From the NCBI GenBank assembly GCA_048938855.1, contig JBHLLT010000006.1, forward strand, positions 32,001 through 96,000: a stretch of 64,000 nt of DNA. Direction: 5' to 3'. This document shows, piece by piece, positions 11,486-27,146 of the stretch; position 1 is the first letter of the stretch, and every line of letters starts with the position of its first letter. The notes beneath the pieces were generated by a model. The model was not told the origin of the DNA. It ran no database searches and was given only the letters and a program-made list of their open reading frames with translations. Source of the stretch: Promethearchaeota archaeon. Lineage in GTDB: Archaea; Asgardarchaeota; Lokiarchaeia; Sigyniarchaeales; SOKP01. A program made the position numbers and the translations under genes.

Positions 11486-11592
11486 TGGCGGGCTATAGGG
11501 GAATTGAACCCCCGACCTTTCTTTTTAAGGGAGAGCTTCCCATAAATGTCAGGTTAAAAGCCTGCTGCGCTACCTGCCTGCGCCAATAGCCC
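11486..11592 (-). tRNA. tRNA-Lys(UUU) with a 30-nt non-canonical intron at the anticodon-stem/variable-loop junction (~11519-11548); CCA encoded
   Basis: Reverse complement: GGGCTAT/ATAGCCC acceptor, GCGC D stem, CAGG-CTTTTAA-CCTG anticodon arm, GGGGG-TTCAATT-CCCCT T arm, GCCA end. 107 nt minus 30 gives a 77-nt tRNA. Confidence 0.9.
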
Positions 11593-11709
11593 ATTAAGAT
11601 TTTTATTTATGTTAAAGCTTGAATTGTAGTAGTATAAATCCATAATAATATAAAAATTTTATTGTAATCAGTTTCTTTCCTTTATTAATCTCTTTAAAAC
11701 TATCATGGA

Positions 11710-12735
11710 TTAATCCCTTTTAGTGAAATGCTCAAACCCATAACTAATTATTTCTTTTTTTTCTCCCTCTTTAGAAATAGAAATATGTTCCTCGGAAACT
11801 ATTTTTCCTATTTTAAAAATATGTCCCCCAATAGATTGAACTGCTTTTTGGGCTTCTTTAAGATCTTTAGGATTAATTGTGAAGATATGAATAAATTCTT
11901 CCCCTCCATTAAAAACTAATTCTTCCAAAGAAACATCAAATTCATTTGAATATTCAATGGATTCAGCATCAATTAAATTACCATTAAAATCTATTTCAAA
12001 TCCTATATTTGGATTTGATATCATTAGATCCTCCAAGGACTTATATAGTCCATCAGAAGAATCTATGCTAGCAGTTGCTAAACTCTTTTCTGCCAGTATA
12101 AATGCTTCATTTTCAGAAATAACCGGTTCTAAAACACTCATTATAGATCTTTTGTACTTAGAAAACTCATTTAAATCTCCATTCTTCTTCAAAAGAATAT
12201 CAAACCCTACACCTGTTAAACCAAACTTATTATTTGCTACTAATATATCACCTACATTTATACCTTGTCTATAGATTATTTTTGAGGGGTTCTTGAATCC
12301 AAAAACCGTAGGATTGATTATTATTTCCTTTGATTCATTAATATCTCCTCCTATATAGTTCAGATCATATGTTAAACTACAATCTATAATCCCATTCAAT
12401 AAATTGATAAATTCGAGTAGTTCAAATATTTTTGGTAGACCTAATGATATGATTAAACCTCTTGGTTTTACACCCTTAACTATTAAATCACTCACATTCA
12501 TAATTATTGACTTTCTACCTATTTGATAAGAACTCATTTTAACTGGCACATCAGTGGTTGATACGAGCATATCAGAGTTAAAAACTAGATTCCCATCCAA
12601 ATCCATATCCTTTAAATCAAAATAAAAAGAATCATCTTTCATAAGATGTTTACCAGTTTTTTTCAAAATCAAATCTTCTATTATTTCTATTAACTTTTTT
12701 TCTCCAAGATTTTCTAACTTAGGATTATTTTTCAT
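11710..12735 (-). CDS. thiL: Thiamine-monophosphate kinase
   Basis: LGEKKLI, NVSDLIVKG, IGGDIN, IDSSDGL, GGEEF. Confidence 0.9.
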   Translation of the reverse strand: MKNNPKLENLGEKKLIEIIEDLILKKTGKHLMKDDSFYFDLKDMDLDGNLVFNSDMLVSTTDVPVKMSSYQIGRKSIIMNVSDLIVKGVKPRGLIISLGLPKIFELLEFINLLNGIIDCSLTYDLNYIGGDINESKEIIINPTVFGFKNPSKIIYRQGINVGDILVANNKFGLTGVGFDILLKKNGDLNEFSKYKRSIMSVLEPVISENEAFILAEKSLATASIDSSDGLYKSLEDLMISNPNIGFEIDFNGNLIDAESIEYSNEFDVSLEELVFNGGEEFIHIFTINPKDLKEAQKAVQSIGGHIFKIGKIVSEEHISISKEGEKKEIISYGFEHFTKRD

Positions 12736-12944
12736 GAGGCAAGAATTAACTTTTTTATGTGATTATGTTTTTTGAATAAAATTGAATAACTTCAAATTTA
12801 TAGAAGCTAATTCTATTGAAAATATATGACCATATTATTTAAATAGTAACTTCACAAAGCTTTTACAAGGAAATATATAACAAGCTAAAATTTTTTTTTA
12901 ATATAGTATTATATCATTATGATTTTAAACTATATTAATAGTTT

Positions 12945-13046
12945 GCCTCTGTAGCTTAGTGGTTATAGCAACATTTTTAGTCATTTTGAAAAAAATGCTA
13001 GAGATTCGTAATCTGTAGATCGGGGGTTCAATTCCCCCCAGAGGCT
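12945..13046 (+). tRNA. tRNA-Thr(CGU) with a 29-nt BHB intron at position 28/29 (12973-13001)
   Basis: GCCTCTG/CAGAGGC acceptor. Removing the intron restores ACAGA-TTCGTAA-TCTGT. BHB: AGCA/TGCT helix, bulges AC^A and AG^A. Confidence 0.92.
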
Positions 13047-13050
13047 CTAT

Positions 13051-14064
13051 TTATACTTCTTCTGTAAAAACAAAACGTTTAATCATTTGAAGGGCTAGCA
13101 TTTTAAAAGCATCGTTTATATTTTCACCTGTTTTTGCTGAAGTTTCAATATATGAAAGGCTAATTTTTTTAGAAAGTTCTTCTCCTTGTTCTGTGGACAC
13201 GACGCGATTATCTTCAAGGTCTATCTTATTTCCAACTAGTATCATTGATATAGTTGGTGAAATGGTTTTGATCTCTTTAAACCAACTTTCTAGAATGTCT
13301 AAAGTCTCTTTGCGAGTAACATCATATACTAAAATACCTGCTTCAGCATTAGCAAGGTATGTCTGTCTCACTCTTTTAAATTGTGCTTGTCCTGCTAAAT
13401 CCCAGATAACGAAACGAACTTTAGATTCTAGTCCTTTAAATTCACATTCTTTTTTCATTATTGATGTACCTATTGTAGATTTATAATCTGTTTGAAAAGA
13501 GTCTTCCACAAATCGGTGAACCATACTAGTCTTTCCAACTCCACCTTCACCACCCAGGATTAATTTAAAAGCATATTCTCCAGATTCTATTTTAATCTTT
13601 TGAAGAGTATCTACTTTTCTCTGGATATTGTGAGACTCTCTATCAATAGATAACTTAGGAATTACTGGGCTTACTGATCTTCCATCTAAAATTCTAGCAA
13701 TTTTCTCAGCAGCTAAATAAGCATATGGAAAAACAGGATCTACCATAGCAACTGCTTTCAATACAGTGACAAAAACTGCTTCAGGACCAGCTTCACAAAA
13801 TATGAATCGTTGCTCTTCTGTATCAAAAGTTCCCGTTCCAAAAGAACCAGAACTAAACTCTTCTGTGATTCTAGTCAAGACAGGTTCGACTAATGCACTA
13901 ACTCCTCCAATAACATCTTCTTCTACCTCTGCATCTGAAGAACCTTTTAATGCGGTCATTACTAACCCTTCTCTATTTACAATAAGAGTCGCGATTAAGT
14001 TCTCTCCTACTTCTTGCTTATACCATTTAAGTAAGGCTTCAAGTTTTTTTCGATCGACTGACAT
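13051..14064 (-). CDS. Roadblock/LC7 domain fused to a Rab-like small GTPase
   Basis: N-terminal roadblock pattern (IATLIVNREGLVM); GEGGVGKT, STIG, WDLAGQ, NKID, ETSAK. Confidence 0.9.
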   Translation of the reverse strand: MSVDRKKLEALLKWYKQEVGENLIATLIVNREGLVMTALKGSSDAEVEEDVIGGVSALVEPVLTRITEEFSSGSFGTGTFDTEEQRFIFCEAGPEAVFVTVLKAVAMVDPVFPYAYLAAEKIARILDGRSVSPVIPKLSIDRESHNIQRKVDTLQKIKIESGEYAFKLILGGEGGVGKTSMVHRFVEDSFQTDYKSTIGTSIMKKECEFKGLESKVRFVIWDLAGQAQFKRVRQTYLANAEAGILVYDVTRKETLDILESWFKEIKTISPTISMILVGNKIDLEDNRVVSTEQGEELSKKISLSYIETSAKTGENINDAFKMLALQMIKRFVFTEEV

Positions 14065-14294
14065 CAGCTCACATCCTTTTTACGCGGTTTACAAATGCAC
14101 TATAAATAACTGAAGTATATTATTGTATATAAGAGGTTTGTTATAAAAATTTATAGAAAAAGAAAACGTTAGGTAGAATTTGAATTTATAGTTCTAAGTT
14201 AATGAAAAACTTCAAGGAATAAAATTTTAAAAATTAAATTCATTATCTTATTTCATCAATTCTAAAATGTTAGAACATAAATCATTTTAAAACC

Positions 14295-14467
14295 GCAGGA
14301 GTTGCCAAAATAATACGTAGTCCTACTTTTATGGCTAAGCTTGGTCTACGGCGCTAGAATTTTACGTAATAGTACGTATATGGCGTAACTGAGGCTCTAG
14401 TGACATAGGTCTTCGAAGGATCTACTTCTTCGTCCTAAATTCGTGGGTTCGAATCCCACCTCCTGCA
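14295..14467 (+). tRNA. tRNA-Leu(GAG) with three non-canonical introns (14309-14338, 14358-14387, ~14416-14443)
   Basis: Removing 30+30+28 nt gives an 85-nt type-II tRNA: GCAGGAG TT GCC AAGCTTGGTCTAC GGC G CTAGA CTGAGGC TCTAG TGACATAGGTCTTC GTGGG TTCGAAT CCCAC CTCCTGC A. Confidence 0.9.
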
Positions 14468-25673: not shown

Positions 25674-27146
25674 TTATCCTTTTACTACTCCTACAGGAAC
25701 TAATCTTACTATTTTTTCAACGATTTCAAGATCGTGGCTCACCTGAACAACTTGATCTATGTCTTTATATGCACCGGGTGCCTCTTCGGCAATCACTTTC
25801 ATCGAAGCTGCTCGTACCATAATTCCTTGTTTACTTAAACTATCTTTAACACGTTCTCCCCAATATTTTTTTGTAGCTTTAGCTCTTGACATTACTCTTC
25901 CCGAACCATGCGCAGTGGAACCAAATGATAAATCCATCGCATTCTCCTTCCCAACACATAGATAAGAAGCAGACCCCATAGTTCCTGGAATTAATACTGG
26001 TTGTCCAATAGATTTATATTTTTGTGGTATATCAGGATGATTTGGCGGAAATGCTCTCGTAGCACCCTTTCTATGAACGTTTAACTTCATTTTTTTACCA
26101 TCAATTTCATGTTCTTCAATTTTTAAGATATTGTGGCAAACTCCATAAATAAGGTGTAAATCTAAAGCATCTATATCTCTTTGAAAGGTTTGCTGAAATG
26201 ATTCTCTTAACCAATGTGTGATTAATTGACGGTTAGTAAATCCAAAATTAGCTGCACATGCCATTTGTTTTAGATAATTTTGTGCCTCAGGAGTATTTGC
26301 AGGTACGCACGCTAATTCTCTATCTGGTACTTTTATATTATATTGTTTCATAGCCTGCTCAATATTGCGTAAAGAATCTGAACATACTTGATGTCCAAGG
26401 GCTCTGCTTCCTGTATGAATCATAACAGTAATTTGATTCTTATCATGAATTCCCAACTTTTCAGCGATACTTTTATTATAAATTTCATCGACTTTTTGGA
26501 TTTCTAAAAAATGGTTTCCACTACCTAATGAACCAAGCTGTTTTATTGCACGCTGTTTTGCTTTCAATGAAACCAGTTTAGCATCTGCATCCATTAAACA
26601 TCCATTTTCCTCTAAATGATTAATGTCTTCTTCAATAGCATAACCATTATCTAATGCCCATTTTACACCATTATTTAAAACATCATCTAACTCTGAATAA
26701 CTAATATTAAGTTTGCCCTTCGAACCCAATCCTGAGGGGATATTTGTAAATATTCTATCCAATAAATTGGGAAGAACATTCTTAATATCATTAAGAAATA
26801 AATTAGATCTTAATAATCTTACACCACAATTAATATCATATCCTACTCCTCCAGGAGATATCATTCCTGTATCTGCATCTGTTCCAGCAACACCACCAAT
26901 ACAGAATCCATATCCTTGGTGGGCATCTGAAAGAGCAATCGCATGTTTTTGTATTCCGGGTAAACAAGCAACATTACAAATCTGATCTAATGTCCGATCC
27001 AACTTTATTTTCTCCAAAATATAATCATTAGCATAAATTTTTACAGGAACTCTCATCTGAAATTTTTCGATATTTCCTTTAATCCGCGACATTAATGTTT
27101 TTGGAGGAATTTCATAGATATTGTTATCAATTTTATTGACATTCAT
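25674..27146 (-). CDS. rtcB: RNA-splicing ligase RtcB
   Basis: DAHQGYGF, GYDINCGVR, GSGNHFLE, HRKGATRAF, STAHGSGR, EEAPGAYKD. Confidence 0.97.
   Translation of the reverse strand: MNVNKIDNNIYEIPPKTLMSRIKGNIEKFQMRVPVKIYANDYILEKIKLDRTLDQICNVACLPGIQKHAIALSDAHQGYGFCIGGVAGTDADTGMISPGGVGYDINCGVRLLRSNLFLNDIKNVLPNLLDRIFTNIPSGLGSKGKLNISYSELDDVLNNGVKWALDNGYAIEEDINHLEENGCLMDADAKLVSLKAKQRAIKQLGSLGSGNHFLEIQKVDEIYNKSIAEKLGIHDKNQITVMIHTGSRALGHQVCSDSLRNIEQAMKQYNIKVPDRELACVPANTPEAQNYLKQMACAANFGFTNRQLITHWLRESFQQTFQRDIDALDLHLIYGVCHNILKIEEHEIDGKKMKLNVHRKGATRAFPPNHPDIPQKYKSIGQPVLIPGTMGSASYLCVGKENAMDLSFGSTAHGSGRVMSRAKATKKYWGERVKDSLSKQGIMVRAASMKVIAEEAPGAYKDIDQVVQVSHDLEIVEKIVRLVPVGVVKG

What the first reader, a model, noticed from the sequence alone, without database searches (positions are those of the whole stretch)
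11486..14467. Uniform family of 28-30-nt hairpin introns, none at the canonical 37/38 site
Seen: five tRNA introns (30, 29, 30, 30, 28 nt) plus the rnhB insert (30 nt). All are AT-rich hairpins, and where the BHB fixes the boundary they begin with A. Two share TACGTA. They sit at five different non-canonical tRNA positions. Inference: such tight length constraint at unrelated sites suggests an actively spreading intron family (re-insertion of excised introns) and a broad-specificity EndA. A 30-nt length keeps reading frame, so stop-free copies could hide in ORFs as 10-aa insertions.
Basis: partly seen in the sequence, partly recalled or inferred. Interest (0 to 1): 0.75.

Follow-up and report, generated by a model that had tools for sequence, protein, structure and literature searches.

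The report
Thirty-base mini-introns in Asgard tRNAs
Three tRNA genes of a Loki-type Asgard archaeon carry five small enzyme-spliced introns of 28-30 bases at unusual sites. This size class holds across the genome and its relatives, the introns come and go between close species, and two of them in one gene are copies of each other, which is a rare direct trace of how such introns can arise.

Summary
tRNA-Lys(UUU), tRNA-Thr(CGU) and tRNA-Leu(GAG) carry introns of 30, 29, and 30/30/28 nt, none at the 37/38 site. rnhB carries a 30-nt insert with a stop codon that splits its DEAGRG motif.

In my main genome-wide census, 27 of 39 tRNA genes are interrupted by 34 introns. The 26 introns at non-canonical sites cluster at 30 nt (19 lie in 28-32 nt). 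The 8 at the canonical 37/38 site range from 14 to 47 nt.

Orthologous genes in 13 genera gain, lose and move these introns, so they are not ancient fixtures. [quoted passage not shown] The ligase RtcB lies in the window.

The "spreading family" idea is only partly supported. The introns share length and hairpin plan but not sequence, and none has an extra copy in the genome. The exception is the D-loop and anticodon-stem introns of tRNA-Leu(GAG): 21/30 identical here and up to 28/30 in congeners. The D-loop copy occurs only in one subgroup, so it is an intron copied within a gene.

Earlier notes of this scan report the 30-nt class in other Asgard genomes. An October 2026 preprint covers repeated Asgard tRNA-intron gains but found no copying route.

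The parts
11490..11592 (-). tRNA-Lys(UUU) gene; discriminator at 11489 and genomically encoded CCA at 11486-11488
   Evidence: Rfam tRNA 50.6 bits. Cloverleaf score 70, the same as intronless tRNAs.
11518..11547 (-). 30-nt intron in the variable loop (44/45) of tRNA-Lys(UUU). It is a hairpin with a weak central helix (2/4 pairs), so a relaxed BHB motif.
   Evidence: Intronless orthologues read CCTGA-CGGTC, which fixes the insert at exactly 30 nt. All 29 congeners recovered keep 30 nt, with compensatory changes in the hairpin.
12945..13045 (+). tRNA-Thr(CGU) gene
   Evidence: Rfam tRNA 51.8 bits. Cloverleaf score 72 after intron removal.
12973..13001 (+). 29-nt intron after position 28, in the 5' strand of the anticodon stem
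   Evidence: BHB central helix 4/4 and inner helix 5 bp. Orthologues carry introns at 24, 28, 36/37 or 41/42, or none.
14295..14466 (+). tRNA-Leu(GAG) gene with three introns; discriminator at 14467
   Evidence: Solver cloverleaf score 71. The mature sequence matches the intronless Leu(UAG) and Leu(CAG) paralogues.
14309..14338 (+). 30-nt D-loop intron (14/15), a paralogue of the anticodon-stem intron of the same gene
   Evidence: 21/30 identical in register to 14358-14387, against a background of 10.0 +/- 2.5. The same pair is 25-28/30 identical in G003, G040 and G047. It is present in 9 of 21 congeners and is absent as an exact 30-nt gap in the others.
14358..14387 (+). 30-nt intron in the anticodon stem (30/31)
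   Evidence: BHB 4/5/2. It is exactly 30 nt in all 21 congeners. The central helix and the hairpin are supported by covariation; one pair is UA in 9 sequences and CG in 8.
14412..14439 (+). 28-nt intron in the variable arm
   Evidence: BHB central helix 4/4 and inner helix 5 bp. Congeners without it read TGACATAGGTCTTC-GTGGG. It is 28 nt in 14/14 carriers.
56136..56165 (+). 30-nt BHB-type insert with TAA inside rnhB (RNase HII, about 56113-56742), splitting the DEAGR|G motif
   Evidence: PF01351 match with one internal TAA. Translation shown. Removal restores GIDEAGRGSVLGP, BHB 3/4/5. It is present in 5 genera and absent from 7 relatives with an uninterrupted motif.
25677..26984 (-). RtcB tRNA-splicing ligase gene
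   Evidence: PF01139, 567 bits.

Best explanation
These are genuine archaeal protein-spliced introns. They would be cut at a bulge-helix-bulge (BHB) motif, or at a relaxed form of it that rests on the central helix, one bulge and the intron's own hairpin (HBh'). The cutting enzyme would be the organism's (alpha-beta)2 EndA, and RtcB would rejoin the ends. The organism is a Promethearchaeia (Lokiarchaeia-type) Asgard archaeon.

They belong to a lineage-typical class of non-canonical introns built to one plan of about 30 nt: one bulge base, an AT-rich hairpin of about 8-10 bp, four bases complementary to the upstream exon, and two bulge bases, usually AA.

Inferred: at non-canonical sites the exon side offers little helix, so the intron's own hairpin has to present the bulges. 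That sets a lower limit on size. Purifying selection then keeps the length constant while the sequence turns over. Introns at 37/38 lean on the anticodon stem instead and are free to vary from 14 to 49 nt.

Shown: introns are gained and lost rapidly between species. At least one gain was an exact copy of an existing intron, from the anticodon stem to the D-loop of tRNA-Leu(GAG), into a site with a similar YGCY-A-R context.

Not shown: actual splicing, and the molecular route of copying.
For: Removing the introns restores cloverleaves that score like intronless tRNAs. Orthologues without the inserts fix the boundaries of four of the five tRNA introns and of the rnhB insert.

Covariation supports the central helix and the hairpin. 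Both bulges prefer A at their first base: 18/26 and 21/26 against 32% A overall.

The catalytic EndA subunit has the Tyr/His/Lys residues. It aligns without gaps to the Aeropyrum pernix alpha subunit through the PLxxxKPR loop. A second paralogue lacks the His. RtcB is present.

Non-canonical introns measure 30.3 +/- 3.8 nt and canonical ones 27.9 +/- 9.8 nt (Levene p = 0.004). The run of exon-side (outer) pairs averages 5.2 in canonical and 2.8 in non-canonical introns. The run of intron-hairpin (inner) pairs averages 1.4 and 4.3.

Length is invariant within a site across congeners: the Leu anticodon-stem intron is 30 nt in 21/21 congeners, the Leu variable-arm intron 28 nt in 14/14, the Gln variable-loop intron 30 nt in 14/14, and the Lys intron 30 nt in 29/29. 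Sequence identity at one site falls as low as 63%.

Turnover is seen. The paralogous pair is shown.
Against: No RNA data exist, so splicing is inferred.

The Lys intron has only 2/4 central pairs, and the Leu D-loop intron has 3/4.

A stability floor does not explain why the peak is so sharp at exactly 30. Intron length does not fall as intron GC content rises (Spearman +0.28, not significant).

Outliers of 22, 26, 37 and 43 nt sit at non-canonical sites.

My boundary solver uses the BHB rule, so BHB scores are partly circular. The same rule gave false hits inside uninterrupted rnhB genes.

About ten expected anticodons were not found, so the census is incomplete.
Confidence: 0.7

Rival explanations
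1. One actively spreading intron family. Excised introns of about 30 nt are re-inserted (by reverse splicing or copying) into new RNA or DNA sites. The uniform length is inherited from a founder, and sequence similarity decays fast.
For: The D-loop and anticodon-stem introns of tRNA-Leu(GAG) are paralogues whose similarity stops at the splice sites: 28/30 inside against 7/16 in the flanks in G047. New introns at different sites of tRNA-Asp and tRNA-Thr within one genus are all about 29-32 nt. Orthologous introns already differ by up to 37% within the genus, so older copies would no longer be recognisable.
Against: All-against-all similarity of the 34 introns equals that of shuffles. The only in-register outlier is the Leu pair. 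No intron has another copy at 73% identity or more anywhere in the genome beyond what shuffles give. Among 4897 cross-site pairs from relatives, 100 of the 108 pairs at 63% identity or more are that same Leu pair. No RVT_1 domain was found in a 97%-complete assembly. The preprint 10.64898/2026.10.13.758758 found only 1.5% cross-tRNA intron families in other Asgard classes.
Confidence: 0.2
2. A ruler in the splicing machinery. EndA or RtcB of this lineage accepts only introns of about 30 nt.
For: Length stays exactly constant at a given site across 14-29 congeners while the sequence changes. The rnhB mRNA intron has the same size.
Against: The same genome holds presumably functional introns of 14, 22, 25, 43, 47 and 49 nt. 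In another genus the Leu anticodon-stem intron at the same site is 22 nt. The EndA alpha subunit aligns without gaps to the crenarchaeal enzyme.
Confidence: 0.08
3. The inserts are not introns but assembly artefacts or decaying pseudogenes.
For: The genome is a metagenome-assembled draft with 7% estimated contamination. ARAGORN and the Rfam gathering threshold miss or mis-call several of the genes.
Against: The same inserts recur in dozens of independent assemblies with compensatory changes. These are the only genes found for their anticodons. Exons are conserved and GC-rich.
Confidence: 0.02

Closest known systems
Non-canonical BHB and HBh' tRNA introns and intron transposition in Thermoproteales (Marck and Grosjean 2003; Sugahara 2008; Fujishima 2010, as summarised in PMC4090602)
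   Same: Several introns per tRNA gene at positions such as 22/23, 29/30, 30/31, 45/46 and 56/57. Relaxed motifs. An (alpha-beta)2 EndA. The idea that introns are copied to new BHB-compatible sites.
   Different: In Thermoproteales, families of near-identical introns span different tRNA genes: 28% of introns at 80% identity or more, according to the 2026 preprint. Here only one pair is related, and both members lie in the same gene. I found no published report of a sharp 30-nt size class in the papers I could search.
[quoted passage not shown]
   Same: Asgard lineage. Introns mostly non-canonical, many in the D-arm and missed by standard finders. Repeated recent gains. Enrichment of BHB motifs.
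   Different: Those studies centre on Atabeyarchaeia and Jordiarchaeia, report median lengths of 22-23 nt, and found no copying route. This Promethearchaeia family has fewer introns per gene (about 0.9), a 30-nt mode, and one clear intron copy within a gene.
(alpha-beta)2 EndA with the L1 (Crenarchaea-specific) loop (Kaneta 2018, PMC5829648; A. pernix structures 3P1Z and 3AJV)
   Same: Two paralogues. One has the catalytic Tyr/His/Lys residues and one lacks the His. The L1 loop with KPR is conserved.
   Different: None detected at the sequence level. This part is already known for Asgard.
cbf5 pre-mRNA BHB intron of Crenarchaeota
   Same: A BHB-type intron inside a coding sequence, here in rnhB.
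   Different: A different gene. The intron has the 30-nt size class shared with the tRNA introns and is present in some relatives of the family and absent in others.

Membership tests
Archaeal EndA-spliced (BHB-type) tRNA introns | Removing the insert restores a canonical cloverleaf with a sensible anticodon | tested here: met
   Cloverleaf scores of 70-72 for all three genes, equal to intronless tRNAs of the genome. Mature sequences match intronless orthologues.
Archaeal EndA-spliced (BHB-type) tRNA introns | A BHB or relaxed (HBh' or hBH) motif at both junctions: two 3-nt bulges separated by a 4-bp helix | tested here: met
   The central helix is 4/4 for the Thr, Leu 30/31 and Leu variable-arm introns and 3/4 for the Leu D-loop intron, with inner helices of 4-5 bp. 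Covariation supports this. The Lys intron has only 2/4 central pairs with a 5-bp inner helix, so it is relaxed or uncertain.
Archaeal EndA-spliced (BHB-type) tRNA introns | A splicing endonuclease able to cut non-canonical sites, and an RtcB ligase, are encoded | tested here: met
   Two proteins match PF01974 and PF02778. The alpha subunit has Tyr/His/Lys and the L1 loop, and the beta subunit lacks the His. RtcB scores 567 bits.
Archaeal EndA-spliced (BHB-type) tRNA introns | Excision and exon ligation observed in RNA | not testable with these tools
   No transcript data are available.
Transposing tRNA-intron families (Thermoproteales type) | Near-identical introns (about 70-80% identity or more) in different tRNA genes of one genome | tested here: not met
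   Similarity equals that of shuffles. There is no extra genomic copy. The best pair between different genes is 18/30, and the exon context explains it.
Transposing tRNA-intron families (Thermoproteales type) | The same intron sequence at different tRNA positions | tested here: met
   Met only by the tRNA-Leu(GAG) introns at 14/15 and 30/31: 21/30 identical in this genome and 25-28/30 in G003, G040 and G047.

The most novel reading that the evidence does not exclude
Promethearchaeia have an ongoing intron-copying process with splice-site precision. Excised 30-nt introns re-enter any RNA site able to form the bulge-helix-bulge with them, in tRNAs and in mRNAs such as rnhB, and become fixed in DNA. 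The 30-nt size class would then be a family by descent, and the closest archaeal relatives of eukaryotes would have a working route for intron proliferation into protein genes.
Probability: 0.15. Interest if true: 0.85.

Novelty: new variant of a known kind. Interest (0 to 1): 0.55.

Why it matters
How protein-spliced archaeal introns enter genes is an open problem. The 2026 preprint on Asgard tRNA introns ends on exactly that question, after finding no copying signal. The tRNA-Leu(GAG) pair gives one concrete, datable case. An intron was copied with exact boundaries to a second site of the same gene, and sister species still lack the copy.

The sharp 30-nt class is shared by tRNA introns and at least one mRNA intron (rnhB), and it contrasts with the free-ranging canonical introns. 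That gives a simple quantity to test at the bench, using EndA cleavage of length variants, and in populations.

The general facts were already published: non-canonical introns, broad-specificity EndA, and repeated gains in Asgard.

Tried and rejected
1. ARAGORN found nothing by default in the window. With -i it returned many wrong anticodons and introns.

2. My first dynamic-programming cloverleaf parser over-fitted and was dropped. I replaced it with a solver that combines the BHB rule with a cloverleaf score, and checked its results against orthologues.

3. A strict BHB motif for the Lys intron was not found.

4. The Gln and Asp variable-loop introns are 18/30 identical. Orthologues show that only the ends constrained by the exon context are alike, so this is not evidence of copying.

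5. Leu anticodon-stem versus Gln variable-loop introns reach about 63% identity. This is borderline, the similarity is confined to the ends, and I do not claim it.

6. Intron birth by tandem duplication of neighbouring sequence. The best case, the Leu variable-arm intron against the next 28 nt, is 17/28, but the TTC boundary repeat inflates it and it drops to 14/28 by my own count for G040's sequence. Rejected.

7. The encoded CCA of Lys(UUU) as a sign of reverse transcription. Of 29 congeners that carry the intron, 17 lack CCA, and the flanks read GTTATT, GCTATT and GCCATT, which points to point mutations. Rejected.

8. A negative correlation between intron length and intron GC content was not seen.

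9. No reverse transcriptase domain (RVT_1) was found.

10. The BHB scan gives false positives inside uninterrupted rnhB genes, so a BHB score alone is not evidence.
Full report
ORGANISM AND SETTING

The window is part of a 3.95-Mb assembly in 93 contigs with 30% GC. Its EndA gene is 75-92% identical to genes in assemblies labelled Promethearchaeota or Promethearchaeia, that is Lokiarchaeia-type Asgard archaea.

The region holds, in order:
- tRNA-Lys(UUU) on the minus strand;
- an AIR-synthase-related gene (11710-12735, -);
- tRNA-Thr(CGU);
- a Ras-family GTPase gene (13051-14064, -);
- tRNA-Leu(GAG).

CHECK OF THE OBSERVATION

ARAGORN finds no tRNA in the window. Rfam finds the Lys and Thr genes at 50.6 and 51.8 bits with inserts of about 30 nt, and only the 3' end of the Leu gene.

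I wrote a solver that lists candidate introns by the bulge-helix-bulge (BHB) geometry and scores the spliced product as a cloverleaf. In that geometry the 4-bp central helix is formed by exon positions -6 to -3 and intron positions -6 to -3, and cleavage falls after the second base of each 3-nt bulge. The solver gives:
- Thr: 29 nt after position 28;
- Leu: 30 nt (D-loop 14/15), 30 nt (30/31) and 28 nt (variable arm);
- Lys: 30 or 31 nt in the variable loop.

Orthologues settle the boundaries without using the motif:
- Intronless Lys(UUU) genes read CCTGA-CGGTC, so the insert is exactly 30 nt.
- Congeners of the Leu gene lack exactly the D-loop 30-mer or the variable-arm 28-mer.
- For the anticodon-stem intron of Leu, RNAalifold on 20 congeners recovers the central helix and a hairpin with compensatory changes.
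- The rnhB insert (56136-56165) contains TAA. Removing it restores GIDEAGRG. Seven relatives have the uninterrupted motif.

GENOME-WIDE CENSUS

A search anchored on the T-arm and acceptor stem, followed by the solver, found 39 tRNA genes. Of these, 27 are interrupted by 34 introns. Two more genes turned up later: Tyr with introns of 49 and 26 nt, and Val(UAC) with a 30-nt intron and a tentative 58-nt insert.

| Intron class | Number | Lengths | Mean +/- SD |
|---|---|---|---|
| Canonical 37/38 | 8 | 14, 22, 22, 25, 30, 31, 32, 47 | 27.9 +/- 9.8 |
| Non-canonical | 26 | 22-43, median 30; 19 lie in 28-32 | 30.3 +/- 3.8 |

The difference in spread is significant (Levene p = 0.004). With the Lys intron corrected to 30 nt, 11 of 34 introns are exactly 30 nt.

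Canonical introns have a long exon-side helix and a short inner helix (mean runs of 5.2 and 1.4 pairs). Non-canonical ones show the reverse (2.8 and 4.3). Both bulges prefer A at their first base (18/26 and 21/26), and 17/26 non-canonical introns start with A. This symmetry supports the splice-site assignments.

About ten expected anticodons were not found, so the census is incomplete.

RELATIVES

Syntenic loci from 19 genomes of 13 genera show the orthologous genes in many states:
- Lys(UUU) is intronless, or has a D-loop intron, or has the variable-loop intron.
- Thr(CGU) has introns at 24, 28, 36/37 or 41/42, or none.
- Leu(GAG) has between zero and three introns.

Within the genus, tRNA-Leu(GAG) has six configurations. 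tRNA-Asp(GUC) has at least six as well, including intronless genes, and most of its new introns are 29-32 nt.

At a given site the length hardly changes:
- Leu 30/31 is 30 nt in all 21 congeners recovered, and 23 of 25 carriers once other genera are included (22 nt in one other genus);
- the Leu variable-arm intron is 28 nt in 14/14;
- the Gln variable-loop intron is 30 nt in 14/14;
- the Lys intron is 30 nt in 29/29.

Gene lengths from Rfam hits in four near-complete relatives again cluster at 100-105 nt in the genus and spread wider in other genera.

IS IT A SEQUENCE FAMILY?

Local all-against-all scores of the 34 introns equal those of shuffled sequences. No intron has another copy in the genome above the maxima seen with shuffles.

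In-register identity over 270 pairs averages 10.0 +/- 2.5. There is one clear outlier, the D-loop and anticodon-stem introns of tRNA-Leu(GAG), at 21/30. These are the two introns that share TACGTA.

- In congeners the same pair is 25/30 (G003), 27/30 (G040) and 28/30 (G047) identical. The flanking exons are not alike.
- The anticodon-stem intron is present in all 21 congeners and in other genera. The D-loop copy is present in nine. A tree of the flanking gene places seven of these in one weakly supported group and does not rule out a single origin.
- Among 4897 cross-site pairs from all loci held, 100 of the 108 pairs at 63% identity or more are this pair.
- Both target sites read YGCY-A-R before the cut, and the intron's GGC pairs with that GC.
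- In G040 and G047 the two introns share loop variants that their orthologues lack. This hints at later sequence exchange between them, but it rests on two short tracts.

SPLICING MACHINERY

Two proteins of 197 and 202 residues match the EndA domains. The first has the Tyr, His and Lys residues. It aligns end to end with the A. pernix alpha subunit, including the PLxxxKPR loop. The Methanocaldococcus enzyme aligns only from residue 66 onwards. The second protein lacks the His.

This is the (alpha-beta)2 type with the L1 loop, which Kaneta et al. 2018 already reported for Asgard. RtcB lies in the window. No RVT_1 domain was found.

COMPARISON WITH WHAT IS KNOWN

- Non-canonical and multiple introns, and intron transposition, are known from Thermoproteales.
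- Heavy interruption and repeated gains are known in Asgard.
- The preprint reports median lengths of 22-23 nt and no copying between tRNA genes, and calls intron arrival the central open problem.
- Earlier notes of this scan (unchecked AI notes) describe the same 28-32-nt class in other Loki-type genomes and about a dozen mRNA introns in this genome. My census agrees with them independently.

What this window adds is the intron copy within the tRNA-Leu(GAG) gene.

VERDICT

The introns are ordinary in kind. They are unusual in their sharp size class, and one demonstrable copy event makes them informative.

The cause of the 30-nt mode is not settled. My preferred reading is a structural floor for introns that depend on their own hairpin, plus selection on length, with inheritance by copying in at least one case.

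Noticed in passing
window 25677-26984 (-): The RtcB tRNA-splicing ligase gene (PF01139, 567 bits) lies about 11 kb from the intron-rich tRNA cluster.
   Followed up: partly
window 56136-56165; loci L199-L219: The 30-nt rnhB intron is present in some relatives of the family and absent in others. It is present (29-30 nt, with the AATTC...GAATT hairpin kept) in genera g1, g5, g6, g10 and g14. It is absent from seven genomes with an uninterrupted DEAGRG motif.
   Followed up: partly
L037, L041, L044, L045, L025 (tRNA-Leu(GAG) of G068, G081, G064, G053, G052): Instead of the 30-nt intron, these genes have a D-loop insert of 57-59 nt. It can be read as a 30-nt BHB intron nested inside a 27-nt one, that is two size-class units. 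G071 lacks the insert although it is the sister of G081, which has it, in the flanking-gene tree (support 100/99).
   Followed up: partly
G000:C49:41349-41435: A tRNA-Sec (anticodon UCA) gene is present, so the organism probably uses selenocysteine.
   Followed up: no
window 11486-11488 and loci L220-L248: CCA is genomically encoded after tRNA-Lys(UUU) in 12 of 29 congeners. The flanks read GTTATT, GCTATT and GCCATT, which suggests it arose by point mutations. tRNA-Asp(GUC) encodes CCA in all 20 congeners recovered.
   Followed up: yes
G000 contigs C31 and C35: There are two different copies each of tRNA-Leu(UAG) and tRNA-Glu(UUC) with different intron states: Leu(UAG) has a 33-nt intron against none, and Glu(UUC) 27 nt against 34 nt at other sites. 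C35 may come from a second strain (estimated contamination 7%).
   Followed up: no
window 13051-14064 (-): A Ras-family small GTPase with an N-terminal extension of about 165 residues, a typical Asgard eukaryote-like protein. It sits between the Thr and Leu tRNA genes, and this arrangement is conserved across the family.
   Followed up: no
L003, L011, L013, L017: G047 carries a tRNA-Thr(CGU) allele with a different anticodon stem and an intron at 41/42. It resembles alleles of other genera rather than those of its congeners. Possible explanations are allele replacement or an old polymorphism.
   Followed up: no
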